Translations under genes and position numbers: made by a program | The notes under the pieces: generated by a model | Seen by the model: the letters and a program-made list of their open reading frames with translations, nothing else | Told to the model about the DNA's origin: nothing | Databases searched by the model: none | Shown here: in pieces, positions 25,255 to 64,000 of the stretch | How positions within the stretch are numbered: position 1 is the stretch's first letter | Layout: each line of letters begins with the position of its first letter | Assembly: GCA_047495785.1 (NCBI GenBank) | Contig: JBLDXI010000019.1 | Span: 2,914,001 to 2,978,000, forward strand | From: Lepidodermella squamata | Lineage: Eukaryota; Animalia; Gastrotricha | Length of the DNA: 64,000 bases | Reading direction: 5' to 3'

Positions 25255-25489
25255 AGTTTCAGGGTAACGCCGTATAATCAGAGATGTAATTTTCTTCACT
25301 TTCAAGTTGTACAATAATTTTGTTGAAATACAAAATTTTCTGAATTATTTCTATTATCTAATAGCAAGTATGCTCCTTCGACCAACGGAATGCCGTATTG
25401 ACTGCAGAAAATACTCCTTCGATTGAAGAGTTGTTAACTTTTGGAATAGTTTAATATCGAACATATAAATTGCAGCTCATCAAAGTCAC

Positions 25490-40991: not shown

Positions 40992-41044
40992 CTTTAATCA
41001 AAGTTTGAATGAGAAGAAAATCAACTTTTTACGGATTTTAAAAA

Positions 41045-41069
41045 CACGAGTCTGGCGTCGAAAGTCGAA
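41045..41069 (-). promoter_or_regulatory. Conserved proximal upstream block of the lectin genes (also 47009-47033 and 52926-52950)
   Basis: CACGAGTCTGGCGTCGAAAGTCGAA identical about 55-80 bp upstream of all three ATGs. Confidence 0.5.
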
Positions 41070-41287
41070 CGGTGGCGCAAAAAATGAGTGCGAAATATTG
41101 TCCTGCTAATTATCTGAAAAATTGAAACGGATCTGGGACAGCTTTTGATTGGCGCTAACGCGTGCACCTGTTGCGCAATCATGCGAGATCAGTTCATCTT
41201 TTCATGAATTGAACTCGCACTGGTGATTTGATGCTCATATTTGATGTCAAATTAGAGTTACAGGCGGTTTAAACTTCGCACAATTAA

Positions 41288-41675
41288 CCCTTTCACCGCC
41301 GGAGGTATTCTCGGCCGAGAATACAGCCTTTTCAAATGGTAATAGCCGCCGCGCGATTAAAATTTGTATTTCGACTTTCACCGATATTTACTTATCCTTT
41401 GTGCAAACACGTAATTAGTAGGTAACGCGTAATTTTCACGCGCAAAATTGAGTTGAACAATGAGTTTTGCGTGCGTTGCGTAACAATAACAACAATGTGT
41501 TGACATTGATTGCTTACTTTCGAACGACTTTCGACGCCGGCCCCTTTGTTACTCGGTGCGCGTATATAATACATTATTAGTGAAACATTATGATTTCGCG
41601 TACATGGCATATTATTAGTGATTCACAGCCATTCTCGGCCGAGAAGACAGAAATCTGTCTTCGGCAGTGAAAGGG
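41288..41675. mobile_element. Non-autonomous piggyBac-type element (388 bp)
   Basis: TTAA on both sides; termini CCCTTTCACCGCCG / CGGCAGTGAAAGGG; subterminal palindrome TTCTCGGCCGAGAA at both ends. Confidence 0.9.
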
Positions 41676-43083
41676 TTAAAAATATAAACTACACCAGCCT
41701 GACGTCGAATGGCAAAATATTGTCCCGGTAATTATCGGAACAATCGAAACGGAACTGGGTGAGTGAGGCGACAGGCGGACGCTCTCGGGGTCCTCGCGCA
41801 GAGGCACGCACTGGGCAGCATTTGCCGAATTATGTATGCGAATTCAAGGTGAGATACTTAATAGTACACGCTCGTGGCCTTGGAGCTTGGAGGGTTGAAA
41901 TTCAGACTTAAGCCGGCGAGTTCAAAGGTACCAAAGGAATCGGCGTTGAAAGAGCCCGAGATACAAGCACCGGTTTTGTTGTTAGCTATTACGCCCCCAT
42001 AAAATCAGAATATTTGGATGTCCCGCTCCTGAGATGAAAGGCGACGGATAGCGTCATCGCTGAAAATGCAGACAGCTGCACTCCCGACATTTATCCTTAA
42101 TACCGAATATTCAAACGAAATACTCCACACTGTTTACAATTTCTCGTTTATTTCGAATAATAACGTGCGTTGTGTATACGTGAATGCAATGGCAACGTTT
42201 AGATTCAGAAACTTTTAATGTTAACAGGAATGATTTTAATTATTTCAGAAATAAACCTTTAATGTGGTCGATGAGCATGTTTTTCCGGTTACCAATCGCT
42301 TGCATCAATGAAAATAAAGCCGAGAAGTGCATGGTCATTATAAAAAATGGTAAACGATGGTAATTACTTGATTGATAAATAACAGTGATTAACTCGGTTT
42401 TGCGTGTTTTCACGGTTTTTATCAAGATTTTGAGCGAGCTAAGAATAATTAAAACATATTTACGTGGGTATTTTTGCGACTCATTTACAACATGTTCAAT
42501 TATAGCCGTCAAGCCGGATGGGATGCCTGATTTTAATTCAGTTCCTGGCCGAATTTAATCGCCATAATGAGAATTCCACGAATTTTCCGCAATTCCGTCA
42601 AGCGTTTCTATACATTTGTTGGACTAAATTTCCTTGCTAGATAAATTGCTGAGATGCCAATTCGGGGTATTTTTCATTATTATGCAAAGTATTTCTTGCT
42701 TGAAAAATTGCTGAAAAATTAATAATTGATCGCTTAAAAATCGCCCGGGGTCCACCGATTCTGTTGGCTAAGTATCGATGGCTAAAATTGGCCAAAAACC
42801 ACTGAGTTTCAGGAATAAATTTGTTATATAGTGAAGTGAAGCTTTCATGCAGATTTATGGAACTCTCGAGCAATTTTGAATTTTTGCCTTTTTTGACTTT
42901 CACCAACGATGGCTCCCTAACGGTGAGGAATTGGCTCATGAGATTTTGCGAGCTTACTGGAATGGGTTCTGACTGTTTATGGTCAAAATATGAGCCCGGA
43001 GAACCTCATGGTTATGGAATGACAAGCGTTGGACAAGCGTTTTATGCAGATTTAGGTTACCGTACCCTTACCTTACTTAACAC

Positions 43084-43740
43084 CAGAGCTGGAAAACCTG
43101 CACGATTTCCTACGCGCCGATTTCGAAATTTCCTACCAAACTACCACTTCCCTCAATTTTGGTCCGGATACGATCCAGAAGCCTCGATTTGGAAGACGGC
43201 TACGATTTGGCAGGACACGGATTAAAAGGGGTCTTTTAAAAAGATTTACTTGTTTGTTTTTTCGAGCGCGCGCACTTATTTTTTTTGGTTAATCACTCAC
43301 TCGCACACACAGCAACACGACCATTGTTACGCATTAGGCGGCGTGCTTGTCGTCCCTTATTGGTCTTATGGTCATTTAAAATGAAGTTAAAGTGCCTTAT
43401 TTGCACACTAACAAACATCAAGTTTTTGAAAATGTCTGGTTCACCAGCGGTCAAACGCTTGAAGCCCAACAGCGGCGCGGCAGTTGTTGCGCCCGCAGTT
43501 CATGCCAGTAGCAGCGCCTTTGCAAGCAACACAACCCCTGACAACAGCGATCAGGTCTTGCCACCGCCACATCCTGGAAAACGCCGCCGCGGTCGTCCAT
43601 CAAACGCTGAAATCGCAGCAAGGGCCGCAGCCGCCGCAGCTACCGGTTCAAGTGCAGCATCGACAAGCCGTCCTGATGAAGAAACGCCGGCGCCGACACC
43701 CGCGAAAAGTCGCCGTGGTCGTAAATCGAATGCAGAAAAG

Positions 43741-43778
<38 letters not shown>

Positions 43779-46180
43779 TGTTGCGGCTGCTGTCGCCATC
43801 GAAAACGGAGCAAACTCGGTCGGTTCTGTGAACAGCGTTGAACAGCCAGAGGCGCCAATGGCCACGCCAATCATCGCCGTCGAGGAGGAACCAAACAACA
43901 ACGAAACAGTCTCGTAAGTTTTTTCGACTACGATGCTCCTCTTGCGCTAAAAACATAAATTCCACAGCATTCAAGATGCCCCTGGCCCATCTTCGTCGAT
44001 ACAAGTTGCTGTCTCAAATCCGCTTTACGAAACCTCGGCCGATGAAAGCTCTAGCGATAGCGATGACGGCGACTGGCAACCTCCCGCCCTTGCTCAACGC
44101 GTGTCTTCCTCGTCAGCCTCCTCGTCCAGTGTTAGCCGTCACTCTTCGCCACCTGGTGATATCGATAGCGAATACTTCGACGCCACTACTGTCAACAATC
44201 AGCCTCATATCGCCGAGAAAATTGAAACTTTCAACATTGTCAAATCTCAACAAGGGCATGATCACTACCAATATCATGGTTACTGCTATAAGCAAAAGTA
44301 CAAATCGGCGAAGCACAATCAGATCCTACTTGGTTGCACTTTTCCAGACTGCGAAGGCTCGGCTTACATGACGAAAGAACTGTTGCCAATGTCAGTTTCG
44401 TCGAGTGGTTGCGGCTGGAAAGAACATGATCATGGCTCTCAGCACGACTTTCATGATGCGAAGAACCTTCGTCATGCAATCAAGGTATGTCTTTTATGAT
44501 GTTTTCTGTTCAATTGTAACGATACTTTCCACTTTCAGGAAAAGGCGTCCGCTTCGAAGGAAAATCCGAGCAAAATCCGAGCTTCTGTTTCGTCTGGTGC
44601 TTCGTTGGGCGTAACTGCTCATTTGAAAAGCCATCGCGCAACGCAGCAGCTCGTTCGCAGGGCGCGCAGAAAGACCGCTGCTGCCGATGACATACCGACG
44701 CTTACCCCGCCGACGCGACTCGCAGAAATCGAAATCCCGCCACACCTGGCGACAACGACTCGCGGCGAGCCATTCGTGTTTTACGACTCGAAGTCGGTTC
44801 GGGCGCCGGACGACCGTCGGATCATTGTCTTCGGTACGGAGAAGAACCTGGATATCCTTGAGGAATCTCAGCACCTTGCTGCTGATGGAACGTTCAAGGT
44901 AGTAATTCGGCGTTTTCCGTATTTCGCGATTATTTAGTGCTGATTCTGTTTTAGATAACGCCGACTCTGTTTAAACAAGTTTACATCTTGCACGCAGTTG
45001 TTGGTGGTGCTTCTCTGCCACTGTTCTATTGTTTGCTGCCTGGTTTCGAAACAGCGTACTATCAAGAAGTGCTGGACCAAATTCGATTTCGCCGGCCAAA
45101 CCTTATCATTCGATCGGCTATGACGGACTTTGAAAAGGCGGCGATGAATGCCATTCAAGACACGTGGCCCAATGTCGACTTGGCTGCTTGCCTATTTCAT
45201 CTGGCCCAGTCGATATATCGCCGGCTGAAGAAAGATGGCTTGCAAGAGCTCTATGCGACTGATGAAGAGATTCGCCGGCGATGTCAATGGCTGCTTGGTT
45301 TGGCATTCGTGCCTGCGCAGTCCGTTGTTACCATTTTCGACCGGCTGGATGAAAAACTGGCTGAGGTGCTGGTGTCGGCACCGAAGATGGCAAAGCTGTA
45401 TGACTACTTCAGGAATAATTACATCGGCTCCGTTCGCCGAGGCATCCACAAACCGCCGAGATTTGCCATCGGGGTTTGGAATATGTTCCAAAGAACCATC
45501 GATGATCTTCCGCGAACCGACAATTCCGCCGAATGTGAGATTTGTTTTCAGCGTATCATTCTTACCTAACAACCCTGTTTTTTATAGCTTGGCATCGCGC
45601 ATTTCAAAAGCGGCTCGATCGCATACACCCGGATGTCTATTCGCTCGTCGAGGCTTTCCGAGCAGAGCAAGACGGGGTGGAGCAGGTGTATGACAAGTTC
45701 AAGAAGGGGCAAGGAATCGCGAAATTTGAGGCTAAAAAGGTCTATGTCGTATCTCAGCAAAACATACTGGCCATGACCGGTGATTTTCACAAATATAAAG
45801 ACATTATAAAATACCTTGATGCGATGAATGCGAATTTAGGTCTAAAGTTTCATTCATAAAATTGAATAAACATATTAAATAAAAACGGCCAGGTTTCGCA
45901 AAAAAGTAAAAATGTACAGTGGCATCATAAATGCATAACAAGGCGTAATTGTGAAATCGTTTTTTTTTAATTATTTTCTGCCAAATCGTAGCCTTCTATT
46001 TTTTATTTCCCAAAATAAAATCTGCCAAATAGTATGTCTGCCATTTCACTCTTCCAAATCGAGGCTTCCGGATCGTATCCGGACCCTCAATTTTTGGCTG
46101 TTTCATAAGCCAAAATTGCCTACTTTTCCCAAAATTTCCTACGCACCTGGTGCGTCATTTCTGCAAGTTTTCCAGCTCTG
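43084..46180. mobile_element. Autonomous-looking MULE (Mutator/Phantom-like) transposon, 3097 bp
   Basis: TIR CAGAGCTGGAAAAC(C/T)TGCA plus an inner IR block (43162-43196 / 46050-46084); 8-bp TSD CTTAACAC (43076-43083, 46181-46188). Confidence 0.92.
43432..45859 (+). CDS. MULE transposase with AT-hooks and FLYWCH-like finger; join(43432..43913,43968..44484,44539..44898,44955..45534,45588..45859)
   Basis: KRRRGRPS, SRRGRKS; GYCY...C....C...HDH; AADGTFK, MTDFEKAAMNA, CLFHLAQ, PRTDNSAESWH; no stops after splicing. Confidence 0.92.
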
Positions 46181-46552
46181 CTTAACACTTACTTAGGTTA
46201 CCTTACTTAAACACTTTAACAAATATTCTGCTGAGATTTATAAAGCAGGAATACCTTTTGAAATAAGTCACAAAATAATCGAAAATCGAAATGTTTTCAA
46301 ATTCTTTTAAATTCTTTCTTAACAGCGATAAAAAAACGTTATAATCAAATAAAAGCAAGCTAACAACTTTTATCTAACAAAGAGTAATTACTATCGTTTA
46401 ACATTCGAATGGTGTAGTGTAAAAGCGGCTATTGATTTACAAGGGAATACTTACGGCCATAGAGTAATGCTATTCCTACATTCGCACTATCTGGTCCGCC
46501 TTAAAAAATTTAATTCAGCCATAGAGCAATTAAATTTCCCTATGGCAAAATT

Positions 46553-46951
46553 TTACCATGCGTATGTAGGAATTTGGTGAACAGCTGCGATTATTATGAC
46601 GAAAATGATATTGAAAGTGAACACAACATTACGAAAGATTCGCCTTGTGGACAGCGAGTCAGCAGGGGTCGGCAAACCGGCGACATGTTCGCAGCGTTGT
46701 AACACATTATAGTTACACCAGTTGTGCATTTCTTCCAATTATCGAATTTATAGACCTGGAATTAGGCGATTATCGGCTATTGAAGAGAATAAGAGTGTTC
46801 GTACTCCTGTCTCGTATCTGCGATCGCAGCCACCCTTCATTTCATTTCTGCATGCGATAAATAGATATTGATTTGAATAACATCGACGCCACGCTGGGAA
46901 GACAGCGCTTATGGTTGTCGAGGTGATTAAATACCAGATAATAATATTCAT
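46553..46951 (-). pseudogene. 5' exons of a third lectin-family paralog (copy C), without CTLD exons of its own
   Basis: MNIIIWYLITSTTISAVFPAWRRCYS...CRNEMKGGCDR, then CTTGVTIMCYN...CRPLLTRCP, homologous to 52868-52450. Confidence 0.7.
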
Positions 46952-48142
46952 TATTGTGCGATACAAATGCGATTGAAAACAAATAATTTTTTGTACGGAT
47001 TTTAACAACACGAGTCTGGCGTCGAAAGTCGAATGGTGTCGCAAATAATGAGTGCGAAATATTGTCTCCTAATTACTTGAAAAATTGAACCGGATCTGGG
47101 TCAGCTGTTGATTTCACATTCAACAGAACGAGTTGTTTTTCGCAACACCATGCGGTTTAGCCCGCACGTGTTGTGCAACCACGCGTGGTCAAGTCATCAA
47201 TTGTAAAAAAACGAGCTCATATTCGTCCTCATATTTGTCATGGCGTGACAATGGGGGTTATTTTGGAAGCCGTCCTTATCGATGAATTCAACTTTATCCC
47301 ATAATGTCAACTTTATCGCCCGGGAATAAAGTCGACTCTATGACCAGTATGATTTTCGAACATAAAGTCAACTTTATTTCACTTAAATCGGCTTCATTTC
47401 GCAAACATGAATGTACCATGGCCGATAAAGTCGACCGGCCTCGACTTTAACGGCCAATTTTTGTCCGATATCGTGCGTTTTGACCTCAAAAACATTTGTT
47501 GACCTAATTGTAAAATAATCATAGCAATGCACGAAGCTGGTAAAAAGTTGCCATGAAATTTTAAAGTTGGAAAAATACTTGTTATTACGAAGTTTGAAAA
47601 ACGAACGAGCGACACCTGATTTAACAATGTGATGACGCCAGATATTGCTGACGTAAGCAATTGCAGTAAAACGATTAGGCGGTCTAAAGAGCCCGATTGG
47701 CCAAAATAGAACCTTCTCTTGGGAAAAGTCATTTTTCATGATTTTTCATATGACTGGATAATTTTCGCTTTGCCTGGTGGATTATGCCTCCGAACGTTTC
47801 TCGACGCTAGGTTCCCCGAAGCTCCCATTTCGTTTTCAATGATGTTGCCTGGCAGACCATGTGGCTTGTGGCTCAGAACTTATTCATATTTCGACCGGCC
47901 TGCTGTTCATCAGCCAAATAATTCTATTAAAAAAAGAAAATAAGAAAATTGAAAATGGCTTCCTTATTCTGCATGATGCAGCTTTAAAAAAAATGGGTGG
48001 AAACACTCATAATTTCTGCTGAAACCTCAGCAACCATATTCTTGATTTATTTCTGATTTATGATGCCAAATAATATATACAACTAAAAATATTGAGCTAT
48101 ATAATTTAATTAAATCAACTGGAAGTGGGGCAAGAAATCATA

Positions 48143-51100
48143 TCAAGGGTCAAATGGGATATAAGGCCCAGGGCCGAATGATCCAAATGAGCCAAACGAG
48201 CCAAATGAGTCGTTTGGACCACGGGGTATCTCTTCCGGTTCTGCCACAAATTCGCAAATATATCCATCTATTTCAGCGTCACATGACGTCGCACGCACGA
48301 GTAAATTTCTCTGCCCGCCCTTCTCCACCGTAGCGCAATCGCCGGGTTCCAGATCGGGATATTCACTTGGCGGCTCTTTAGTAAAATTAAAGTTTGCGGG
48401 CCAGTCTTTCCCGCCATCCAACCATGTCCATGTGCCATTGATTCTCCTCAGGCCGACCCACAAGATGTCAGCGATAAAGTCATGCACTGATTCATTCTCT
48501 ACATATTCCCGGATGTCAAATACCGCCAACTGACCTTTTTCGACCTCGCAAGCAGTTTTAGCTTGTTGCCACGTCGTACTTACGCGGTAGTACTCGAACT
48601 TCCTATCAAAAATCTCGCACCGAGCCCTGCTTACAAATTCGCCTCGGTTAGACTCATTCTTCAAGCAGCCCGTAATGTCTGATCGGCAAATGATGGCCTG
48701 ACGGTCCGAGCATTGAATGTATTCTGACTAATAAAAGAAAACAGTGAATTGAAACGTATTCGAAGTAATTCAAAACAGTAGGGTTTTACAGGCTCTAATT
48801 AAAAATATGACGAATAGCTTATATCCATCGAACCTGTGGCTCCTCGTAAGTTTCGCAAATGAAACCCGGTGTTAATTCATTGCAAGACTGAACATCGACA
48901 ACGCGACCCTTAGTAAGAGCGCAGTCACCGAGGTTAGCAGCCGAATCCTGCAGCCAAGAAATCCGTCGGCCAGGATCCAGAGCTGTACCATCAATCCAGG
49001 AGAAGAAAGGCGAGGTCTTCGGCCCACTGGCCAAGAGCCCAACCCAGTGAGTGTAGAAAGCTCTCTGCGCAATGCGCAGGTAATCTGCAAAATCAGTTTG
49101 GGTTTTGAATACCGCGAGTCGTCCGTTCAGCTTTTCGCACGAAGCCTTCGCCTCGTACCACGTTCCGTTGGCTCGCACCGGTTGCCAAACTCGCTTTACG
49201 GCTCCACAAGCAGTTGCAGACATGAAAGTCGTGAGTGGCGGCAGTCTGTCTTCACCTTCGTAACAACCCGTTGACGCCCTTCGACAGATCACAAAATCAC
49301 CATCTTTTTGGACGCACCGATGATATGAATACGAGGGGGCCTGAAAAACAAAGAGTCAAACTTGTTGGTAAGGGTATCAACAAATTTTCCAATCGAAATT
49401 ACTGTTTTTTCAATGTCGAAATACCCTTAATCGGCCAACACGCTGTTTATGGGCTGAATTAAATTTCATAGCCGGCTCTTATGATCTTCTAGTACTGAAC
49501 CAACTCAAAATCCTCGAACTGACCTGAGGTATTCCGTAGGTTTCGCAGATGAAACCATCGGCGCTTGACGTGCAGGGCTGAGTTTTGAGTGAACCAAGGG
49601 CAGTATATCCGCATTCGCCAGGTTTCGCCATCGAGCTGCCCAACCAAGTGTGCAAGACAACAGTCCCATCAATCCATGCATAGACTGGTGATGCACTGGG
49701 TTCGTTGTAGGCGAGACCGACCCAGCTTGCGCCAAGCCCGGGTTGCACGTTTAAGAAGTTTTGGTAATCAGCTTCCTTCCTGAAAACCGCAAGACGTCCG
49801 CCCATTTCTTCACACTGAGTCTTAGCTTCGAACCATGTGACAGAGCCATGCACCGGCTGCCAAACTCGTTTTGGCGTTTCGCAGTCGTATACATCGCCAA
49901 AGTTTGTCAGCGGCGGAATACGTTCCTCGCCGTCGAAACAGCCGGTTGATGCTCTTCGACAAACAACGTCCCCATCTTTTTGCACACATCGGTGGAATAG
50001 GTATTTCTGAAAATTAGCGGAAAATAAATAACAATTACCAGCGAGCGGACAAAATTTTGAAACAGCAATATCAGAACAAAACGCACAAACAACGCTTTTG
50101 AAACAAAAAAACGCACCGGGTCAGGTAATCCCGGCACTGAATGAGTGAGACATGTCTCATAATTAGCCCATAATTAATACTTAATACTAATAATACTGAG
50201 GCACTGCATGGACAGTTTCACACGGTCTTAGAAAGTGAATGCCGAATAGCTATACCCCTCCCCGTTTTCTCAACGCTTTTATGGTGTACGCCACTGAGCC
50301 CTTATCCCAATGCAAAAATTGTTAAAAGAACAGATCTAGCGTCGGGCCCTTTGCGGTTATCAAGAAAGTATTGTAAAAGGTAATTGCCCTCTATTCACTT
50401 CTTTCCTTTATTTCGATCCGCCTCACATTTATTTACGGTATTTAAGGTTCTGAGCATGCGATGCAGTGAATTGTAAAAAAACAAAAACAAAAAGCTCACC
50501 GGGTCAGGTAATCCCGGCACTGAATGAGTGAGACATGTCTCATAATTAGCCCAGAAATGTGCTGATGCAGCGCCATAACTTCTATCCTGCAAAATTAAAG
50601 ACATTACTTTGAATCTGGTATCCTAGTTTCAAGCTCACTTCTCCAGAGCTCACAGGACACTGTCTGTAACAGATATATTCTCCCCCTGTCAAACAACTCA
50701 CCGCCTCCTGTCAAAATTATGAGCAAGCGGAAGTCGAATCGCATATAAGTCTTACCCCAAGCATGCACATTTTTCTGCTTGGAAAGGTTTCTGGAGAGTA
50801 AACGGTGGTTTCGTTCGCCGAACAGCCATCGTTGACAGGACGGCAGTCCATGAATACTCGAGACGTTTGATCGAAACACCGAATATGAGGTACGGCGTAG
50901 GTCTCGCAAACGAAGCCCTGACTTGACGAGGTGCAAGGCTTCGTTAGCAGCGCGCCGCCCTTCACGTAGGCACAGTTGCCCAGAGTCGGGACTTCTTCGG
51001 TTAACCAGGCATTCTTGTTCACATACTCCAATTCAGTACCGTCAATCCACGAATAAATTGGCGGACCCTTTGGACCATAGAGAACGGGCTTTGGACGTTC

Positions 51101-52868
51101 GATTTTCAGACCAACCCAAATCTCGCCATGTGCACCTTGCGTAGATCGTTTGAAATCCGCGAACTCGGATTGATTCTTAAACACTGCCAGTCGCCCATTC
51201 ATCAGCTCGCATTGAGTCTCAGCTGCGTACCATGTTACATTGCCCTCAACCGTTTGCCAAATACGCTGAGCATGCAAACAAGAATCTACAGAGTCGAAGA
51301 TAATCGGCTTCAGAAATCGATCCTCCCCGGACAAACATCCAGCCGAGGCATTTCGACATATCACAAAACCACCATCTTCTTGCGTACAGCGTTGGAAAGC
51401 GCTATTATTCGACTGTAAAGCTGTGACCTGAGAATGATGATGACAAATTTGAAATCAATGCTTCCAAGCACAGTAGCAAAGCTAACCGGGGGCTTTGGCT
51501 GGTTCAAGCAATTATTGTGATTTGCCCAGAAATCCTTATAATCATCGAAAATGTTCACCTGCGCGACAAAAGAGACAGCAATCGGGGTGTTCCGTGAAAT
51601 GATTGAATTTCAGCTCACCCGGTTGTACCGTAAAGGACAATTGGTGTAACAGAGTATTTCCTCGCCCACCAGACAGCTCACTACTCCCTGTAAAAAGGAT
51701 AAAATCGTGAAATCCTGAATTTGGATAGAAATTTCATGTTACCCCAGTGAGACATGCTTTCTTGTTGAAAAATTTTCCGTTTGAATAACGCCCAGTTTCA
51801 TTTTTCCAGCAGCCGCTGATTGCAAGACGGCAGTCGGTGAAAATTCCCGTTGATTTGTCGAAGCATCGAACGTGGGGGCTCTGGATGCTAGGATTTTGCA
51901 CTTAATAGAAAATCACTGCTATGAATGTTGAATAGGACATATTTACTCACTCGTTACGTTTAAGCATGAGTTGAAATTGTCGAATCGTTCATCGCCGTTG
52001 GTCTGAAAGTTAGGCGATAATAGATCTCAGATAAAAATATAAATAGTTGAAACAAAATACCGAATCTAATGGGCACTTTGATCTCAGAGGCGTGCATGTC
52101 GTTGGCACGTCGCCGGATTTGCATTGTTTGAACGTCTGATTCTGGATATGAATTTGATTTAAATTGCCATTATTGTGAGCTATTTTCATGCAAAAACACC
52201 TTGAATGTAGCTTCGAAGGCTTCACAGTCCTTCCAGTCATATTTCAGCGTTTTCGATTCAAACCTTCGAACCTTAAGAATAGATGAATCAAAATGACATG
52301 AATTAGTTATTACAAATGGAAATATTTTTCTGATATAGCTCGAGTACGGCGAGTTTAGATATGAACGATTTACGAGTGCTGCATCAAAAAATATCGAATT
52401 GGCCAAGCTACTCGACTTATATAAGACAAAATTAGCATAAATAATAATTACGGGGATTTCGCCAAATGGACAGCCTCTAAGCAGGGGTCGGCAGATTGGC
52501 GACATGTTCTTTTGATTGTAACACATTATTACGCTCTGTTAAAAAAATGTTTTCATATAGTTAACTGCATAATTCAAGAACAAGATTGTCGATTATTGAG
52601 CGAGAAAGTTTTATAGGCGCGAAACTTACACCAGTTGTGCACTCCTTCAAATTCTTGTAGTTACCGGTCTGGAATTGAGCAATTATCGACTATTAGAGAA
52701 AATAAGATTTTTTCATACCCCTGTCTCTTTCGGGCGATCGCAGCCACCTTTCATATCATTTCTGCACGCAATAAATTGATATTTATGAATCGAATAGCAT
52801 CGCCGCCATGCAGGCCAGACAGGGCCAATGGTTGTGGAGGTGATCAAAAACCAGATAATAAGATTCAT
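48143..52868 (-). CDS. Multi-exon secreted four-CTLD C-type lectin, copy B (apparently intact; not all junctions resolved)
   Basis: Signal peptide at ATG 52868; Cys-rich spacer exons; CTLD ORFs 50717-51364, 49479-49985, 48819-49292, 48143-48664. Confidence 0.8.
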
Positions 52869-55609
52869 TTTTGTCAATCAAAATTTAAATGATGGAAAAA
52901 TTCAACTTTTTACGGATTATAAAGACACGAGTCTGGCGTCGAAAGTCGAATGGTGGCGCAAATAATGAGGGCGAAATATTGTCCAGCTAATTTTTGAAAC
53001 AATTCAAACGGATTTGGGTCAGATTTTGATTAAACAGAATGAGTTGTTTTTCTTTCTTTCCTTTAACTCGCACTTAAGCTGCACCTATTGCGCAACCAGG
53101 CGAGGTCATCAGTTGGAAAAAATCGAGGTCAGGCTTCGTATTCTTTAGCGTTTTCGGATAGAGGCAACTGGTTATTTGATTGCTTATTTGCTGGCCAATT
53201 GATTACTGGCAGTATTGGCTTGAATTCAACATCGCACAATTTGTTAGACGGGGTCAGCATTTCAAATATAAATTCAAATCTAGCCTGAATTCACTGCCAG
53301 CCATCGATTCAGCGTCCTAACACATTGAGTATGTAAATAATCTGGAAGCATTCATGATAATTCTAGAGAGTTAATATGTAAAATTTACATCGGCGAGGTA
53401 AAAGGTTCCTCAGCGATAGGCGGCGAAAGCTGCCCGAAGTTCAAGGAACGATTTCAAGCTATTCAAGCTAATGAGAAGTTATAATGTCCCACTTGTGAGG
53501 TAAAACGCGACGCAACATTTCGGTAAGGGTCGCGTCATCGCTGTAATTGTAGACAAGTGGCTCTCCCGGCTTGGATAATTATACGCACGATATATAGAAT
53601 TTTCATCTGAAATCCTGCTATGGGGCTATTCCCTTCATGCTTTATTGTACCTAAATGCTCTAACGATAATTTAAGAATCGCCGCATCTCATCCATCCGCT
53701 TATACTTTATACAGTCGAAATTAACATCGAATCTCCCCCAATTAGACCGGCTTGCACTGTGCATTTGTCGTTGAGTAGAATTGTCTTGCCCATTTAACAG
53801 TCTCGCCATCGCCAATGTCACTGCATATGGCTCGGGGGAGAGCCTAGCCTGGTAGTTTATGCATCATTGGGCTATCGAACGCCGACGTTAATTCGGCCGA
53901 GTGGTTGGAGGCAATTACAGGATGTTAAAGATTTCACATTGTTGGTGGGTGGGTATTTCTCAATCTACATAAGCCTCTTTAAGCTTCCCTTTTTAAATGA
54001 AGTGCCGACACTTTACAAACGCAACGCACCTAAGGCAGTCCAACTCAGTATCATTTAATACGATAAGGTTTTTGTATCTCCGAAAAATGATGCGATTCTA
54101 TCCTTTCATTTCATCTTCAAAGATGCTGCCTCACAGACCATATGGCTCAGAACTTATAAAAATGCATTCATATTTCGACATGACGCCATGGAGTTTGTTT
54201 CAAAATACAGTCACGCGCTTGTGACTCTGATTGGATTGGGCGTTTTCCATCCCGGGACACAGCATTTCACCGGGGTTCACCTTCAACTTCAAGATAAACA
54301 AGATGTTAAACAATCAAAATATAGATCACCTGGCAGTGATGACTGTGTTTTGTAGATTATCAACGTACTGTCGTTTGAAAGAAACAGGAGGACCGTTTTT
54401 GAATCCTTCACGCAACATTAGCTTAACACGGACTAAAAATTTGTTTCACCTATAGATCATGCGGTTGCACTCTAATTTTGGACAAGGTGTCTGGATGGTT
54501 CAGACACAAATCTGCCAATACGCATTAATTTAAAGCTTTATCCGAACTCCTGATCCAGTTATGTCTGTATAAATATTCAGATCATATAGAAAAGAAAAAT
54601 CATTATATTCCATTTACGAAGAATGCGGAACGGCAAAACATGATCATCGAACCGCGCTTTTCACTGTAGGGTACTTAAATCCCGTTATTAGCTTCGAAAC
54701 ATCGTAAGAATCACGCATCGCGTCGAAGTGATGCGTGTGGGGGAACAAGAAGTGCGTAAGCCTGAAAGTTGCACTTGAAAATTTGAAGGAGATCGCCATC
54801 TCATCAAGCCAAGCTTATCTTTCATTTCTCTCTCGTGGCGACCGACTTAATTCGGCGATCATTTGCGGCTTTCTCTGAGTGTTTTGACTGGGTGCGAAAA
54901 TTTATTAGAATCTCAGGTCTGAGAGGAAATCACGTGGCCATTAATTTAACGATTTCTATTAAAAATAACTTTTTCTCTCATTACTCTGGTCACGCAAAAC
55001 ACCGATTTTCAACAAGGAAGTGTATTGTTTAAGATCGTCTAGACTCTGGACATCCGTTTTAAGTAATACGTCATTCTTCTGTTTTCCTGCTTTATTATCG
55101 GAATGCAACTTTAAAGTACAGCCTCGAGCTACGAATTCTAAATGTGGTATTGAATTCTTTCGTTATTAGTAATCTATCATCGCTTTCAATAATTCATCAC
55201 TGAAACATGGTTCTTCCGATCGATAAGCTTAGCGTTAATTCGATTAAGCGTGCAAAAAGTTGAATCAACGTGAGAACAAAGCGTAGGATGCGCGTCATTT
55301 CAAGCCGGCCTGCTGTTAATCACCCAGCCCCCGCTACGTCGCCCTATTCTTAGTAGCGTGTCATCAATAATTAGTTTGATCAGTATGACTGCCCACTTGG
55401 CATTATGCATACCGGCGCGCGTAACTCCCGGCGTCTTAATATTTTATGCCGGCTGCCATGCGGACGACCGCTTAATCACCCGTTTTTCACGTGTGCGCAG
55501 CCGGGCGTGACGAAGCGGCGCCACGTGTCGATCACTATTTGTTTTTACAACCAAACATCACTTCACTTTTTTGCTCCTGTATTATAGCCGCAAGGTTAAA
55601 AACTCTGTT

Positions 55610-56077
55610 ATGAATCTTCAAACTTTGGTCGCTGGTTACGTGATAGCTGCTGGGCAGGTTCTGGGCGAAGACTCGAACAGGCAGAATGTTGTCTACAAAA
55701 CACCTAAGGGTGTTGTCGTTCAATTGGCGAAAAGCCAAGGTGAACCAGCCAACGAACAGGTGGCGAAATCGGCTCTCCTTCGCACGCTGATCAGTCAAAA
55801 TCAGCAAAATTCGACCTTCACATCGCAAATAAGCGTCGAAGGCTCGGCGAACTCGAACACGACGACGCCTATTTCAAAAGCGAAATCCTTAGCCGAGCAA
55901 ATGTTGGCATCCGGAGCTATGTTTGACATTATGGTGGCCTGTATTGTCATGGTCATTCTCATCTGGTCGATATGGACTGTTAAGAAGATTGTCGACACGT
56001 GCAAAAACAGGCGGAAAGCGCCGCAAATGGGCAAGCTTCTCCAGAATTCGAATACTGATGACTGTGAATGTTCGTGA
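55610..56077 (+). CDS. Small single-pass (type I) membrane protein of unknown function
   Basis: ATG 55610; N-terminal hydrophobic leader, S/T/N-rich stalk, TM IMVACIVMVILIWSIWTV followed by KK; AATAAA downstream. Confidence 0.65.
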   Translation: MNLQTLVAGYVIAAGQVLGEDSNRQNVVYKTPKGVVVQLAKSQGEPANEQVAKSALLRTLISQNQQNSTFTSQISVEGSANSNTTTPISKAKSLAEQMLASGAMFDIMVACIVMVILIWSIWTVKKIVDTCKNRRKAPQMGKLLQNSNTDDCECS

Positions 56078-56329
56078 TGAAATTTAGTGTTAATTCCGCT
56101 TTGAATATCGTTATTCACGCTATTTTAGCCAGTACAATTCAAATTGTAGCCTTCGAATTATTGTTGTGATACCTCAATTTACAGACAGTTACAGACAAAA
56201 TAAAAGGTTCAAAGGGCAAAAAACGTCTGTCATCTTGATTTGTCATTCTATGGCATAAATCATCAGATTTCTTGCTTCGCATTACATCCAATGACGTAAC
56301 AAGTAAATAATTTATTATTGAATCGATTC

Positions 56330-56682
56330 GTACAGCTTGGAGCTATTCATAAGAAAGGCGAATTTTTAAGTTTTGAATACAGCATGAAAGGAAGACGTGT
56401 CGCCGTCTACGGAGCCAAGGGCACAATCCTCGAGTGCGTACCTGCTGGTAACACTGCCAAGCAAATCCACCCGAGACCGCGGTTTCCTCCCTCCCGGTGT
56501 AGGACGCCATTCACCGGCAATCAAGATATGGCTACTCAGTACGCAAAGCCTGGGGACCAAGGTTCGACCATCAACCATGGGAATAGTTGACTCATAAGCC
56601 TTGTGATGATGTCTGATACCAAATGCTAAATGTCGAAAGGCAACTTGCATAAATAAAGAGTATGAGTATGAGTATGAGTATG
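56330..56682 (+). mobile_element. Probable 5'-truncated LINE 3' end
   Basis: GC-richer coding-like stretch ending in AATAAA followed directly by a (GAGTAT)4 tail, as in CR1/L2-group elements. Confidence 0.5.
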
Positions 56683-57586
56683 TCCTATATGGAACAACCG
56701 AGGGAAATTAAACGAAGAAAGGACTCAATTCTAGAAGAAGATACGATGCCCAATCTGCTAGCCGAACATTGAATCCTCCATTGAATCAGGAGCCAACATC
56801 AACTTGCGAGTACAAGCGGCTATTTGCGCCTCTACTTGCTCGTCAAACGGAAGGCCTTCTGCCAAGAAAGGTGAAGCTTTCTGCCATTAATTTTATGATT
56901 GCAATTGAGTAGTAAGGGGGGGGTCTCCAGCAACGGTCAAATTTTCAAATATTTTCCCACGGTCGGAGAAATGAATCATAAGAATAAATATGGAAAATGA
57001 TGGAAAAATAAATGTCAAGGTCATGTGTAAAGTTTTGGCGCCAAAAATTTAAAATAAAAGTCAAGGTCGTTTTCCCAAGGTCACGTGACAGCGGCAGGAC
57101 CGATCATTATTGATTGATTATCGATTATCGATTTTCGGAACTTATATCGGTAATAACAGGATGACAAAGATGTTTTCCTACGATCAGGTGTGACTGCGAC
57201 AGTACTTATCGATTATTGGAAATCACGCTGATTGGAAATAATGAAATTCAATAGGTCGTTTGATGCGATTTTCCCACGGTCAGGATCGATGCTCGCAAAA
57301 TGGAAACTTCCGAAAAGTCAAAATAAAGTAAACAAATACCACGATTCAGTAGGAAAAAAAATAAAATAAAATCCCAAAAATAAATGTCAATTTCGCTGGC
57401 TGCGTTGTCTATCGTAACCATCAAATCGATTTTTGATTAATAATTAAATTACATACACACCTTGCATTGAAATTTTATTGCGCAATTAAAACACTCACTC
57501 ACTCACTCACTCACTCACTCACTCACTCCTTGCGCCTCACAAAATGTTCAAAATCACTCCTTGCGAATTGTGTGAAAATCATCGCA

Positions 57587-57883
57587 TCAATCTAACATGG
57601 GGGCATTTAAAATGCTTCGAATCAGCCGAACACGCTCAATCACTTGCACCAGCATTAGTAAGCCTTCCGCAGTTTCGCGTTGTAAAATCATCAACGAGTC
57701 GACTTTACGCTCGAGCTGATCAATTCGGAATCCAATATTGTCAATGGCAAGTGATAAATCGCGCAGTTGATTCCGCTGCTGCTGCTGTTGAGGATGGACA
57801 GTTACAACCGCAGGAGATAGCTGTTGTTGTTGTTGCTGCTGTTGTCCTTGAGGGCTTCGAAAACCACTGGCTCGAGAATCCAT
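57587..57883 (-). CDS. Gln-rich coiled-coil protein (Polinton cargo; upstream exons possible)
   Basis: poly-Q, then heptads LRDLSLAIDNIGFRIDQLERKVDSL. Confidence 0.5.
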   Translation of the reverse strand: MDSRASGFRSPQGQQQQQQQQLSPAVVTVHPQQQQQRNQLRDLSLAIDNIGFRIDQLERKVDSLMILQRETAEGLLMLVQVIERVRLIRSILNAPMLD

Positions 57884-58301
57884 CGATACTAATAATGATG
57901 AAGATGATGATGATCGTGCTGAATGCTCGCAAAGTAGTAGTAGTACTAGTACAGTATCAAGAGGTTGGTAATAAATTGCGAAAATTTGCAGGAGTAATAT
58001 AGGTATTGCAACTGCAAAGTATTGTTAGTGCATGAAGTTACTTAGATGGCGCGAAAGCACACCAATAATTTGTAATGCTCCTGCTGCTGTCAAAGTTCCA
58101 TTATACACTGGCGTTAATGCACTATAAGCGCGGGTAGAGAGGAGCGGCACGTCAACACACGTCACCGCTCATCAAAACGATCACCGCTCACCAAACCCTG
58201 GGAATAAAAAAAAACCGACAGGTTTCGCGCGCTTTACTTTCGTGACATGTAATATATGCGATTCTTGTTATAATATTGCGAATTGCTAATAATTCGAAGA
58301 A

Positions 58302-59093
58302 ATGGAGGAAATTTTCAAACACCCTTGGAATTTTCACCATATTATTGACAACATTTTATCGTGTATTCATAATGATCATGAGCTCGGCCATTTGTGCAAA
58401 GCTTATTTCGAAACCGGGAGGTATGTAGTTAAATATCACCTGGAGAAGCGAATAGAGTGGTACCTAAGGCCTAACGATAACCGCTTTACGGCTATAACGA
58501 GTCGGATTGTTTTCGCGAATAGACCCACAGGTGATAGCCTCACACCATATTGGGTCGAATATGCAGCTTTTAAATTCGGCGCGACGAAAAGTCTCTTCGA
58601 AATTCTTCAAAATTATCACGTGACAGATTACATCGTCTCCTTATTCATGCGTCAGTTATTATTAAATAAATGAAAAATTAATAAAATTATTATTATTATT
58701 ATCATTATTTCAGACCACGAACCGGATATGAAGTGTGCCCTTGAACCATTCTGGTCTATCTACATGCGAGAAAACGATCGAGCGTCGCTCTTGCTAGTGG
58801 CAGCGGCTAATCCAAACCTGACAAGCCGCTCGCTATCTCGAATGGTAGAAGCCGGGGCTGAAATCAATTTCGTGTCGCCGAGATGGCTACTTTCACCGCT
58901 ATTAGAAGCCGCAGCCACTGGCTCAACCAGTTCGGTTTTGTACCTGGTCAACATGCGTGCAAACGTATATCACGCCGATTTGCATGGTCAACGCCCCATC
59001 GACCGTGTTCATACGTGCGAGTGGGAGAAATATCGCATTTTGCGTCAGGCTGAATCGACCAAGGCAACATCAAAAATAAAAAGATGGCGCTGA
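58302..59093 (+). CDS. Ankyrin-repeat protein with F-box-like N-terminus; join(58302..58650,58714..59093)
   Basis: FHHIIDNILSCI..DHELGHLCKA; GAEIN...SPLLEAA..G....V.YLV..RANVYHADLHGQRPID; 63-nt GTCAGT..TTTCAG intron keeps frame. Confidence 0.72.
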
Positions 59094-59243: not shown

Positions 59244-59807
59244 ATGTTTGATATCGACGTTTTTATCAGAAATACTGTTGCTACTTTTAACCTGGGCGGT
59301 GTTGAACTCGAGCTGCGTAAAATAATCACGTATTTCAGAATGGCAGAAATATCACCGAGATTCAGGAATGCCGTTATCATCAAGGAAAAATACTATTCCG
59401 CCTTGATTTTCAAAACAGGCAACATTGTTGTTATAGCCAAGAAACCAGAATTGGCTCTGAAATGCGGGCGGCGGTTAGCGAGAAAACTTCAGCTGCAGAG
59501 CAACAATAACTCGATCAAATTTCAAAACTTTCGAATTCGTAATTGTACCGTTACTGGTCAACTACCAACGACTATTAGCTTCAATACAACTCTCCTGAAT
59601 GAATTATCTTCAATTAGCACTCGAGTAAAGCTCGACTTGACGCGGTTTCCTGCTTTGCGAATCGAAAATATTATGGACCAGAAAGTTAGTATTAATTTGT
59701 TTTCATCAGGTCGATTTTGTATTACAGGGATAACCGATCCCAAATCTGAAATGCAAAATATGGCTGTGGAAAAATTTCTTGTTATCGCTTTGGCGAATTC
59801 AAAATAA
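59244..59807 (+). CDS. Divergent TATA-box-binding protein (TBP) homolog, core domain only, intronless
   Basis: Two TBP repeats: IRNTVATFNLG..LELRKI...AEISPRF.NAVI....SALIFKTGNIV and FQNFRIRN...RFPAL....KVSINLFSSGRFCITG. Confidence 0.92.
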   Translation: MFDIDVFIRNTVATFNLGGVELELRKIITYFRMAEISPRFRNAVIIKEKYYSALIFKTGNIVVIAKKPELALKCGRRLARKLQLQSNNNSIKFQNFRIRNCTVTGQLPTTISFNTTLLNELSSISTRVKLDLTRFPALRIENIMDQKVSINLFSSGRFCITGITDPKSEMQNMAVEKFLVIALANSK

Positions 59808-60116
59808 AATTTCAATTTTTTTGTGTTAAAACAAATCCACCTTAATTTTTTTATTTTTACTTCGTACTCACTCTATATATTATAATCGCGCACAGCCAAT
59901 AGCATGCGAGGTGGGCGGAGCTTGTGGACACCACGCACTCACAATTGTTTTGGCAATCATAACTAGTAGTAGTAGTAGTAGTAGTAGTAGTAGGTAGTAG
60001 CCAGAACAACCATAAAACATGAATTGAATAGACCTTAATGTATGAATGACAATCTCAATAAATATAATATAAATAGCATAATAATAATAATAATAATAAT
60101 AACAACAACACGAGTA

Positions 60117-60427: not shown

Positions 60428-60955
60428 ATGGATCAGCAATATAACCCTATTGCTACCTACAACGAACTGTGTGCTGCTGCTCGCGATGCACAGCGTTTAA
60501 TAAATATGCTGCAAGCCTTTAAGCAAGTAATGTCCAGAGAGGTGGACATAGTAAAACGGGACCTCAAGTATCTTGAGGAACATAGGTAAGCTTTTGACGA
60601 ATTTTCTGTCGGCTAATCTAATTTATTACGCGTTAGAATGATGATACCCCACACAATGAGTCCCGCCATCGAGGTACTACTCGGCCAACAGGTCATACTG
60701 GTTGAGATGAATGAACGAAGCTGCGCCCTGAAATGGTTGCTCAACGATATGATTAGCCAGGTAGAGCCAGCTGCCCGGACACAGCACGCAGCAGCCCAGC
60801 AGGCAGCAGCAGCAGTAGCTCAGCAACAAGCAGCAGCCCAACAGGTAGCAGCGCAGCAACAGGTAGCAGCGCAGCAAGCAGCCCGACAGGCAGCAACAGC
60901 ACGAGCCGTTCTGGACGAGGTCTTGGCCGAAGCCTTGGACGAAAATCAAGAATAG
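60428..60955 (+). CDS. Helical Ala/Gln-rich protein; join(60428..60585,60637..60955)
   Basis: ATG 60428; 51-nt GTAAG..TAG intron keeps frame; AAQQQV repeats. Confidence 0.7.
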
Positions 60956-61788
60956 TCGCAGCAGAAGCAGTCAGAAGCAGTCAATGTGGAAAAAGAGGAG
61001 ATACGTCGCCCCACGCCTTGGTGTATATTCATATCACGGTAACAAAATATATGCTTAATTTACTTACACTAATAGCTCCACCTGAAAGCTGTCACTTCAC
61101 TCGGTTCGAAGTTTTTGTAAATATAGCATACAAAATATGCAATATATTTATTACATTATCTCTATCTCACTCGAGGACACACACACACCCACACTGTAAT
61201 AATGAATTCGACTTCGAATTTTTTGTATATAGCGATTGTTATTATTATTATTATTATTATATGCATGCTGGCATGTAAATAGATATCTCTCTCTCTCTTT
61301 CTTTGAAAAATTTTTAAACATAGCGCTTGCTTATTATTATTATTATTATTATTTCGAAAAATTGTAATAATAAGAATCATGTAGAATTTCGCGCTTTAAC
61401 CTGGTCGAACACTTGAAGTTCCATTTTTTTTAAATAAAATAAATCATGACTTTTATACTCCCATCTTTGAGTTCATTTTGAGAATGGAATGCAGATTTTT
61501 TTCAGTGCGCGTGTTCATTGAATAATAAAATTGGACTCACGGCTCGTGGATATGATTGGTGTGCGAGGGGTGCTAACCAACCAATGAGCGCAGAGATGTA
61601 TAGCATTACTAGTATAATTTCTTTTGCAGTAGTAGTCGTACACTACTTCTTAACCGGTAGTTTTTCTACACACTTAAATAGTAACAATTTCCGCGCCAAA
61701 ACAGCAGCAGCAGCACCGAGTGAGTATTTAAAAATGCAGGCCTCTCATAAAGAATAATTTACCCAATTTCATCGATATAATTCTAGTT

Positions 61789-64000
61789 ATGTTGACTGAC
61801 CTCGGCTATCACTGTTATTCTTACCTATTCGGAATTGAGGTCCATAAGTATTCCATCACGGACTTGGATGTCTTACAATCTGGATTGGGATGGGAAACCG
61901 AAGACGATGACGATGAAGGTGGTCATCAAATCGTCGCACTTCTGACCAAGATTCAGCTCAGTTTTGAGTCTGTAGCTCAGCAAATTAAGGCAACTTTTCC
62001 AGATCGGTAATTTCCATTTATTTCCATGAAAATTTATTGCAATCTGTTAATAATAATATTATTAATTTGAAGAGATCACGTTCGAGTTGAATGCCACCAC
62101 GAAGCCCTGCACACCCCATTCTTAACCTCTTATATTGAAGTAAAGGAATTATCCGGAGCTCTGATTCTAAACCAGGCCAACTCGGTTTTACAATCTAGGC
62201 TGTGCGCAACAATGGAAGGGGGTAATTAATTAATTTAAAAAATCAGAAAATTCAAATAAAATAATTATTACTATTTTTAATATTAAAAAGGTTGGACGTT
62301 TTCTGTCTTCAGAATCAAGACTAGTGCATTGGAAGAAGACGAACTAGCCCTAGGGGCTGGTCAGCCGAAGAAAAAGCGACGTTTAGAGCAGACATTGGTC
62401 GATTTTATACTGTCTCACAGATCGGTTCTGTTCATAGACAATGACGATCGCTTGTGCCTATTCAGAGCCATTGTTCACGCTCTAGCTTACCGTGATTTTA
62501 ATGAGCCGAGGGCTGGTCATGAACGTCACGGAAATTTCGAACTATTGCGTCCCTATTATTCGAAAGATCGCGATGCATTAACACCATTGGCAATCCAAGA
62601 GCGAGCAGTAGCATTCGAATACGAAGGGCAATTGGCTAAGCAGCTGATGGAGACTGCTGGTATTGATGGAAATAAAGATCGCTATGGCATCACGGATTTT
62701 AAAAAAGCTGTTGAAACAATAGGGCTACCGTATCGTGGTAAATTCTGGTACCTGAATACTATTTCGACCCCTTACTAATTCTAAGAATTTAATTTTCTCA
62801 GGGATTATTTACAACTTCAAAACGAAACAGGTTGTCGCAATTCATCCTCCGGCAACTGTTGAAATAGCTGACGAGCGAAAAATTTACATTGGTTTTATCA
62901 GTAGTCAAACTATTGCTTCACATGTCGAAGGAGGCGTAGGGTCGTTCGAAAGTGTCGGACACTACGTCGGCCTAACTGGTATTTCTAACATATCAGGCGG
63001 AAAAATCATGTGCCCATACTGCTTCATGCTCCATAAGAAAAATTCCGTAGCGCATAAATGCAGTCGAAAGTGCAATAGGTGCCAAACCGTTGGGGCAGAT
63101 TGTAAAAGCAGTCGAGAGCGGGACATAATATGTCGTGGCTCTTGCGGACTATATTACCATGGAAAGCAGTGCTATGAAGCTCATGTCAAGGTGAACCCAA
63201 CTACTGGAAAATCAATCTGCGATTCTTTCTTCATGTGCAGCAAATGTGGAAGAACGTTGCCGGCGAAAGCTCGAAAAAAGCACAAATGTACGTGGTTGCG
63301 CAATTCGAAGCATGCTCAGGGAAATTTAATCTTTTAGGTGAAATTCGAAACTGCCGTGTCTGTAAAGGTGATTTGCCTCCACGCGACGAGTCTGCACCGC
63401 ACGAGTGCGTTATTCAACCTGGTAGGATTGGGAAAGTAAAGCCGAGGTTGCTTGCGTTGTTTGATTTCGAGACAATTCGAGGCAACGATGGCACCCTGAT
63501 ACCTGTAGTTGTTTGTCTCAATTTCTTTTGCGAATCTTGCAAATTCCTACCGAGCTCTGACAAATGTCCCGCAAATTGTACTAATGATGATCCACGCACT
63601 CACTCATTTGTCTCTGACGGAAGTGACAATTCTTGCGTTAACAAGCTAATGCGGTACATTCTTCAGGAGCAGTTCAGAGGTCTCTTCCTGTTGTCTCACA
63701 ATGGAGCTCGGTAATTTTAATTTCGAAAAACACTTTAGTTTTGAGATTTATTTCCCTACTATTACTATAACAAGCTTCGATCACATGTTCATCATGGCTT
63801 GGCTGCAGAGACATGAATACCAATTTGAAACTATCCACCACAACAATAGTGTCATGGAGATCAAAGTTGAAGGCAGCATTGTATTTCGCGACTTTTACTT
63901 GCTAACAATGACGAGTTTGGCAGCGCTTTTCAAAGCATTTGACCTACAAAATGAAGACATTACTGGGAAGCAATTTTTTCCCTACAACCTGTTGACGCCC
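61789..64000 (+). CDS. polB: Protein-primed family B DNA polymerase (Polinton type), 5' part; join(61789..62006,62073..62221,62291..62737,62802..63287,63338..63710,63775..>64000)
   Basis: IDNDDRLCLFRAI...GHY (OTU-like protease), Cys/His-rich region, ExoI LFDFET, ExoII HNGARFD, FRD...L..L.KAFDL...KQFFPY; five frame-preserving introns; true start may lie further upstream. Confidence 0.92.

What the first reader, a model, noticed from the sequence alone, without database searches (positions are those of the whole stretch)
59244..59807. Element-borne TBP keeps the TATA-intercalating residues but has lost the acidic TFIIB stirrup
Seen: all four Phe equivalents (PRF, LIFKTG, RFPAL, LFSSG) and both Asn (IRN twice) are present, unlike TRF2. 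The conserved YEPE stirrup reads LDLT, the first-repeat VCTG reads VVIA, and there is no N-terminal extension or intron. Known: the YEPE glutamates contact TFIIB. Inference: it may bind TATA-like DNA without recruiting host TFIIB (decoy/repressor), or work with an element-encoded partner.
Basis: partly seen in the sequence, partly recalled or inferred. Interest (0 to 1): 0.82.

Follow-up and report, generated by a model that had tools for sequence, protein, structure and literature searches.

The report
Polinton-borne TBP with retuned surfaces
A virus-like jumping element, probably present in a handful of copies in an animal-type genome, carries an intact but very divergent TATA-binding protein whose DNA-reading and TFIIB-contact residues are both altered, so it likely serves as the element's own promoter-recognition factor rather than as a simple decoy.

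Summary
The ORF is real: 187 aa, two TBP repeats (Pfam E 5e-16), a confident TBP-saddle model, and at most 34% identity to any relative found. It lies 2.3 kb inside the left end (AGTAGT, 56908) of a pPolB-bearing Polinton/Maverick-like element whose depth is about 5 times that of the flank.

Three of the four intercalating Phe are in register; the first is one position off, with Arg in its column. The stirrup is only half lost: the first Glu is Asp, the second is Thr, and the next Leu is Arg. The DNA face also differs at the three positions known to retune TATA specificity.

'Keeps Phe, diverged stirrup' is published for viral TBPs (Ravarani 2020; KSHV ORF24, an activator). Best reading (0.5): an element-specific promoter factor for host Pol II; decoy 0.18. 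Binding, expression, partner and dN/dS were not testable.

This scan reported Polinton mini-TBPs (about 145-154 aa) on other DNA. This 187-aa form has no look-alike among those notes. I found no paper on TBP in animal Polintons; the nearest is a figure-legend label for MELD viruses. New variant of a known kind.

The parts
59244..59807 (+). Divergent two-repeat TBP-like ORF, 187 aa, basic (pI 10.2); stop codon overlaps AATAAA
59361..59366 (+). First-lobe stirrup F40-R41: Phe one position off the F99 column
59631..59651 (+). Second-lobe stirrup L130-D131-L132-T133-R134-F135-P136 (family majority Y-E-P-E-L-F-P)
56908..56913 (+). AGTAGT, the (AGT)2 end motif of Mavericks; likely left terminus of the element
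   Evidence: searches (sequence; PMC8097293 passage), depth step
56908..57480 (.). Likely left terminal inverted repeat with internal sub-repeats; right limit approximate; the partner repeat is outside the window
   Evidence: (bins 56918-57135 at 754-830 against about 370 inside)
57587..57883 (-). Small Gln-rich, coiled-coil-like ORF of unknown function
   Evidence: HSBP1 E 0.01, below cut-off
58302..59093 (+). Ankyrin-like gene in two coding segments with a candidate intron
   Evidence: (Ank_4 E 0.006, below cut-off)
60428..60955 (+). Small helical, Ala/Gln-rich gene in two segments, unknown function
   Evidence: no family above cut-off
61732..64000 (+). 5' part of a protein-primed family B DNA polymerase, in segments separated by short AT-rich GT-AG stretches read as introns; includes an OTU-like Cys/His pair and Cys-rich repeats (motif reading recalled); runs off the window
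   Evidence: (PF03175 E 2.6e-9 at 63701-64000)

Best explanation
The ORF encodes a divergent TBP-fold protein carried inside a Polinton/Maverick-like element, and it likely acts as the element's own promoter-recognition factor, predicted to bend a non-standard TATA-like box and to bring in host RNA polymerase II through a weakened TFIIB contact or an untested element partner. Shown: intact ORF, TBP homology, residue states, position inside the element. Predicted: saddle fold. Inferred: expression, DNA binding, altered specificity, activation of element (probably late) genes.
For: Fold kept despite deep divergence: AF2 on a 119-row alignment gives pLDDT 94.8; Foldseek TM 0.79-0.86 to human TBP in the top four rows, E about 1e-15; best identity 34%. 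Three Phe, both Asn, P136, T161 and both S-G turns are kept, and the protein is basic. Changes cluster where they should retune rather than abolish binding: R139, S149 and N151 at the TBPm3 positions, giving a more polar interface, as reported for KSHV ORF24, which keeps the Phe residues, lacks the acidic pair and activates late promoters. Viral TBPs as a class keep the DNA Phe and vary at C.L3.2/3.4. One unrelated-source protein, P0130, shares the same second-lobe states (49% identity over residues 129-163, next best 40%, median 29% of 140), so they need not be private decay. In run X1 the ORF lies in one contig at about 5 times flank depth with no listed difference, against 7 in 617 bp of adjoining non-coding DNA (P 0.011, or 0.046 if one unlisted end difference is coding).
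Against: No expression, binding or partner data. The F99 column holds Arg, T124/G125 read Ile/Ala and the R196 column holds Glu, any of which could weaken DNA binding. The R139/E141 register depends on the alignment: HMMER puts the one-residue gap earlier. No significant shared promoter word: TATAAT lies before 4 of 5 element genes (not the TBP gene), nominal P 4.6e-4 as best of 941 six-mers, so not significant, and two of the regions overlap. No capsid, ATPase or integrase gene is in the window. The model was guided by an alignment of ordinary TBPs; the single-sequence fold failed (pLDDT 36.8). X1 may be the source sample, collapsed contigs hide variants, and depth is not a copy number. No close relative beside a pPolB was found.
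Confidence: 0.5

Rival explanations
1. Decoy or repressor: it would occupy TATA-like DNA, or soak up N-lobe partners such as TFIIA, Mot1/BTAF1 and TAF1, without recruiting TFIIB, and so dampen host or element transcription.
For: Second Glu to Thr and Leu to Arg in the stirrup; basic helix 2 kept (R76, R77, R80, K81), whereas PMC7221094 reports that viral TBPs generally lose the N-lobe signature; no TFIIB-like gene in the 7.1 kb seen.
Against: The Arg-contacting acidic position is kept as Asp. An altered DNA face should compete poorly for host TATA boxes. The viral precedent with the acidic pair missing is an activator. The conserved Asn of the N-lobe loop reads Met (N in 129 of 140).
Confidence: 0.18
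2. Captured passenger: a TBP copy that drifts or decays inside a recently amplified element and does nothing.
For: Long branch (1.17 against median 0.41); changes at very conserved sites (G125 column, F99 column); near-identical copies could reflect recent amplification alone; no related element found.
Against: An open 187-codon frame with fold-critical residues kept at about 30% identity is hard to get by neutral decay; it is no recent host capture, as no hit exceeds 34% over the core; stop codon overlaps a poly(A) signal.
Confidence: 0.14
3. Orthogonal pair: it would work only with a TFIIB-like protein encoded in the unseen part of the element, as proposed for giant DNA viruses.
For: PMC7221094: almost all viruses with a TBP-like gene also have a TFIIB-like gene, with co-varying interface positions. 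The two nearest ESM Atlas clusters are mostly viral, commonest Nucleocytoviricota.
Against: None in the 7.1 kb seen; Polintons are 13-25 kb and none of the Polinton papers searched mentions TFIIB or TBP (terms searched differ by paper).
Confidence: 0.1
4. Architectural role in replication: it would bend AT-rich terminal-repeat DNA to help protein-primed initiation rather than transcription.
For: DNA-bending residues are kept while partner surfaces drift; it lies between the terminal repeat and pPolB; the terminal region has AT-rich sub-repeats. Host DNA-bending factors help adenovirus origins (recalled).
Against: No precedent for a TBP in this role is known to me; no test was possible.
Confidence: 0.08

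Closest known systems
Cellular TBP (PF00352; yeast 1YTB/1TBP, human 1CDW)
   Same: Two repeats, saddle fold (predicted), N69/N159, F116/F190/F207, P191, T215 equivalents, basic helix 2.
   Different: 26-28% identity to solved TBPs; F99 column Arg; E186 Asp, E188 Thr, L189 Arg; I194/V203/L205 equivalents Arg/Ser/Asn; T124-G125 Ile-Ala; core only; element-borne.
TBP-like proteins of large dsDNA viruses (Nucleocytoviricota; PMC7221094)
   Same: DNA Phe kept, variable TFIIB stirrup, compact gene; BFVD fold hits (TM up to 0.78).
   Different: Closer in sequence to cellular TBP (26-28%) than to BFVD viral models (at most 19%); the element is a small pPolB type; no cognate TFIIB seen; basic helix 2 kept.
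Beta/gamma-herpesvirus vTBP (KSHV ORF24; PMC12529657)
   Same: Lacks the full acidic pair, more polar DNA face, would use host Pol II.
   Different: ORF24 is a multidomain protein with a Pol II-binding N-terminal domain, a DNA-binding C-terminal domain and five partners, and needs all four Phe; this protein is a bare core.
TBP-labelled genes of MELD viruses (PMC8502044 / bioRxiv 697771 figure legends)
   Same: A TBP-like gene on a midsize linear dsDNA element.
   Different: Only a legend label in figures about mostly non-animal datasets; I could not see the figures or compare sequences.
Polinton mini-TBP reported in this scan's earlier AI notes
   Same: TBP-like gene inside an animal Polinton/Maverick.
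   Different: Those are about 145-154 aa by the noted lengths; this is 187 aa, and a look-up by sequence found no look-alike.
TRF2/TBPL1
   Same: Divergent animal TBP-family protein with a changed DNA face.
   Different: TBPL1 has Trp at N.L5.1; this protein has F56 and keeps F135 and F153.

Membership tests
TBP family (PF00352) | Two TBP repeats above the Pfam cut-off | tested here: met
   58.7 bits against cut-off 22.9, two stretches
TBP family (PF00352) | Saddle fold | tested here: met
   AF2 pLDDT 94.8 with alignment; Foldseek TM about 0.8 to solved TBPs; model is alignment-guided
Canonical TATA-binding TBP | Four intercalating Phe in register | tested here: not met
   3 of 4; F99 column holds R41, F40 one off
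Canonical TATA-binding TBP | Two central Asn | tested here: met
   N10, N100
Canonical TATA-binding TBP | Acidic pair C.L3.2 and C.L3.4 | tested here: not met
   D131 kept acidic, T133 not
Canonical TATA-binding TBP | Binds TATA DNA and TFIIB | not testable with these tools
   No DNA or binding assay available
TRF2/TBPL1 | Trp at N.L5.1 and loss of most intercalating Phe | tested here: not met
   F56, F135, F153 present; the Phe-loss feature is recalled
Orthogonal viral TBP-TFIIB system | TFIIB-like gene in the same element | tested here: inconclusive
   No hit in the 7.1 kb within the window; the rest is not held
Polinton/Maverick | Protein-primed family B DNA polymerase | tested here: met
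   PF03175 E 2.6e-9, 37 bits against cut-off 25.8; gene cut by the window edge
Polinton/Maverick | (AGT)2 end motif | tested here: met
   AGTAGT at 56908-56913 at the depth step
Polinton/Maverick | [quoted passage not shown] | tested here: inconclusive
   One end only; roughly doubled depth in two bins fits a repeat present at both ends, but summed short contigs can inflate it
Polinton/Maverick | Retroviral-type integrase, packaging ATPase, protease, capsid genes | not testable with these tools
   Element runs off the window at 64000; no genome held
Polinton mini-TBP (earlier scan notes) | About 145-154 aa and sequence likeness | tested here: not met
   187 aa; no look-alike by shared words, a search that misses distant relatives

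The most novel reading that the evidence does not exclude
A second, full-length lineage of Polinton TBP, separate from the mini-TBPs, has rewritten both its DNA code and its TFIIB contact, giving a transposon-sized animal element a private promoter system that runs on host Pol II with no TFIIB of its own: a one-protein orthogonal transcription switch.
Probability: 0.2. Interest if true: 0.8.

Novelty: new variant of a known kind. Interest (0 to 1): 0.5.

Why it matters
How Polintons control their genes is essentially unstudied in the papers I searched. A bare 187-aa TBP that reads a different box would be the smallest virus-type initiation factor to test, and a natural probe of whether one acidic stirrup residue and three Phe suffice for Pol II initiation. 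The residue pattern itself is already described for viral TBPs, and this scan has seen TBP genes in other Polintons, which caps the surprise.

Tried and rejected
Searches for close relatives found none: word search of 5.8 billion proteins with the ORF (76 candidates, 0 hits) and with a two-row alignment (only P0092 itself among 466); viral contigs with the ORF, P0092, P0130 and an alignment (one search matched one stretch but gave no locus); metagenome contigs with the ORF and P0092. A pPolB segment gave 0 of 63 candidates and one chance phage locus, L001, which I dropped. The top HMMER hits were inflated by repeats or duplication (P0001, P0002, P0003, P0005). Kinship with P0092 was considered from shared rare residues and rejected: it shares 12 of 91, no more than five other rows. 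Trees (133 rows FastTree; 32 rows quick IQ-TREE because the careful run did not finish) put the protein among long branches without strong support, so its origin is unresolved. Single-sequence folding failed. No RNA holder listed. dN/dS could not be computed, because copies collapse into one contig. A shared promoter word was not significant. No complex prediction was run: a negative would not count, and a TFIIB pass would follow from solved structures. The Atlas look-up for the pPolB segment did not complete. The host taxon was not determined; C-type lectins, a family C receptor-like gene and short GT-AG introns point to an animal.

Full report
THE ORF. Window 59244-59807 (+) is an uninterrupted 187-codon ORF. 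It matches Pfam TBP in two stretches (E 5.2e-16) and 30 distinct PDB TBP sequences (best E 1.3e-9). HMMER against 1.84 billion representatives gave 200 hits at E up to 0.001, of which 150 were listed. The three strongest are inflated by repeats or duplication, and the highest identity over the core is 34%. AlphaFold2 on the ORF plus 118 hits gave pLDDT 94.8; alone it failed (36.8). Foldseek ranks cellular TBPs first (TM about 0.8, 26-28% identity) and viral TBP-like models lower (at most 19% identity). The stop codon overlaps AATAAA.

RESIDUES. I aligned 140 of the 150 hits, dropping 4 repetitive or non-TBP rows and 6 outside 150-470 aa. Yeast numbers follow the chain offset. Kept: N10 (N69), N100 (N159), F56 (F116), F135 (F190), P136 (P191), F153 (F207), T161 (T215). 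The F99 column (F in 124 of 140) holds R41, and F40 lies one column earlier (F in 1 of 140). Both flanks, EISP and AVIIK, align without a gap, so the first Phe is out of register unless the loop shifts. In the stirrup, E186 is D131, E188 is T133 and L189 is R134. PMC7221094 (sections 9, 11, 12 and passages) names these two acidic sites C.L3.2, which contacts a TFIIB Arg, and C.L3.4, which contacts a Thr. The first is therefore conserved in charge. Of the 140 relatives, 15 lack an acid at the first site and 12 at the second. On the DNA face, 12 of 27 positions (list recalled from TBP-DNA structures) match the family majority. The equivalents of I194, V203 and L205 are R139, S149 and N151; these three positions carry the altered-specificity changes of yeast TBPm3 (PMC1636458, passages). 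The R139 assignment depends on gap placement: HMMER differs, while strand alternation and P0130 favour it. Helix 2 stays basic, but the N-lobe loop Asn is Met.

THE ELEMENT. A pPolB domain (PF03175, E 2.6e-9) begins near the right edge. Coding segments upstream of it, from about 61732, are separated by short AT-rich GT-AG stretches that I read as introns (no RNA evidence). They carry an OTU-like Cys/His pair by my reading of the motif, as expected of Polinton pPolB (bioRxiv 2024.03.18.585575, passages). In run X1, contig depth is 74-75 over 53461-56367 and 56710-56813, and 340-372 over the internal genes. The step falls in the bins around AGTAGT at 56908, the commonest Maverick end motif (PMC8097293, passages); one contig of intermediate depth spans 56784-56864, so the exact edge is not fixed by depth alone. 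The tool warns that depth is not a copy number, and X1 may be the source sample, so 'about five copies' is an estimate. No genome is held, and integrase, ATPase, capsid genes and the right end are unseen. Vertebrate Mavericks are reported as intronless, so introns here are unusual.

SELECTION. The ORF lies in one X1 contig with no listed difference from the window; one unlisted difference near the contig end may or may not be coding. Seven differences are listed in 617 bp of adjoining non-coding DNA, P 0.011 or 0.046. The two listed differences in the ankyrin-like gene both change a residue by my reading. This is a weak hint and no dN/dS.

RELATIVES. No close relative was found. P0130 (199 aa, cluster of 5 from metagenomes) shares D131, T133, A137, R139, S149, I150 and N151. 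No other row shares more than 3 of these 7, but the set was picked from P0130's own matches; the fairer figure is 49% identity over residues 129-163, against 40% next and 29% median. Its genomic context could not be fetched. ESM Atlas places both proteins near two mostly viral TBP clusters and one mostly eukaryotic cluster, commonest Nematoda; these are leads only. Trees leave the origin unresolved.

PROMOTERS. TATAAT precedes 4 of 5 element genes but not the TBP gene; it is the best of 941 six-mers and not significant after correction. TTTSSCGC, an E2F-like consensus that I recalled, has 6 of its 10 window matches in the element's 11% of the window (P 2.6e-4; 5 of 9 distinct sites, P 1.4e-3; post hoc). 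Sites lie before the pPolB gene and in the divergent promoter, none before the TBP gene.

MECHANISM. Shown: intact ORF, TBP homology, residue states, location. Predicted: fold. Inferred: the protein is made, bends a variant box on element promoters and recruits host Pol II, with TFIIB bound weakly through D131 or bridged by an unseen partner (0.5). The precedent is KSHV ORF24, which lacks the acidic pair, has a polar DNA face and activates late genes (PMC12529657, passages and section 16). The late-gene idea also comes from this scan's earlier notes, which I could test only by the inconclusive motif count. Rivals: decoy 0.18, passenger 0.14, orthogonal TFIIB pair 0.10, replication-origin bending 0.08.

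LITERATURE. Searches for polinton/maverick with TBP or TATA returned no paper on TBP in animal Polintons. The only direct mention is a figure-legend label for MELD viruses (PMC8502044 and bioRxiv 697771, passages and section 8); I could not see the figures. Term look-ups in four other Polinton papers found no TBP. Subscription journals, Repbase and supplements were not searched and may hold such annotations. The scan's own index holds 14 findings with these words, 8 shown, all mini-TBPs on other DNA, plus one similar orphan; none matched this sequence.

VERDICT. A real, element-borne, divergent TBP. New variant of a known kind; interest 0.5.

Noticed in passing
window 57034-57045, 58049-58056, 58223-58230, 61387-61394, 61693-61700: E2F-like TTTSSCGC sites are concentrated in the element (6 of 10 window matches), before the pPolB gene and the divergent promoter; could tie early genes to S phase (inferred).
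   Followed up: partly
window 61732-64000, 58302-59093, 60428-60955: Element genes appear to carry short spliceosomal-type introns, unlike intact vertebrate Mavericks; the TBP ORF has none.
   Followed up: partly
window 57935-57947, 59964-59993, 61628-61649: Internal AGT runs resembling the terminal motif; the third has AGTAGT and ACTACT facing each other just upstream of pPolB.
   Followed up: no
window 56368-56679: A 312-bp high-depth insertion that the single-copy X1 contig skips; likely a small non-autonomous transposon.
   Followed up: no
window 12580-16229: Element with 433-bp perfect inverted repeats and transposase-like ORFs without a Pfam hit; looks recent.
   Followed up: no
window 43161-46085: MULE-domain element with 36-bp inverted ends.
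   Followed up: no
window 17178-32878 and 36754-51929: Tandem host duplications: NTPase/ankyrin genes with a family C receptor-like gene (about 9.4-kb unit), and C-type lectin arrays (about 11-kb unit).
   Followed up: no
protein P0130 (cluster P0130, P0170-P0173): Metagenomic TBP-like family with the same second-lobe stirrup and specificity residues; genomic context unknown.
   Followed up: partly
window 57544-57640 (+): A CxxC-x10-HxxC pattern in the frame antisense to the small coiled-coil ORF; unclear which strand is coding.
   Followed up: no
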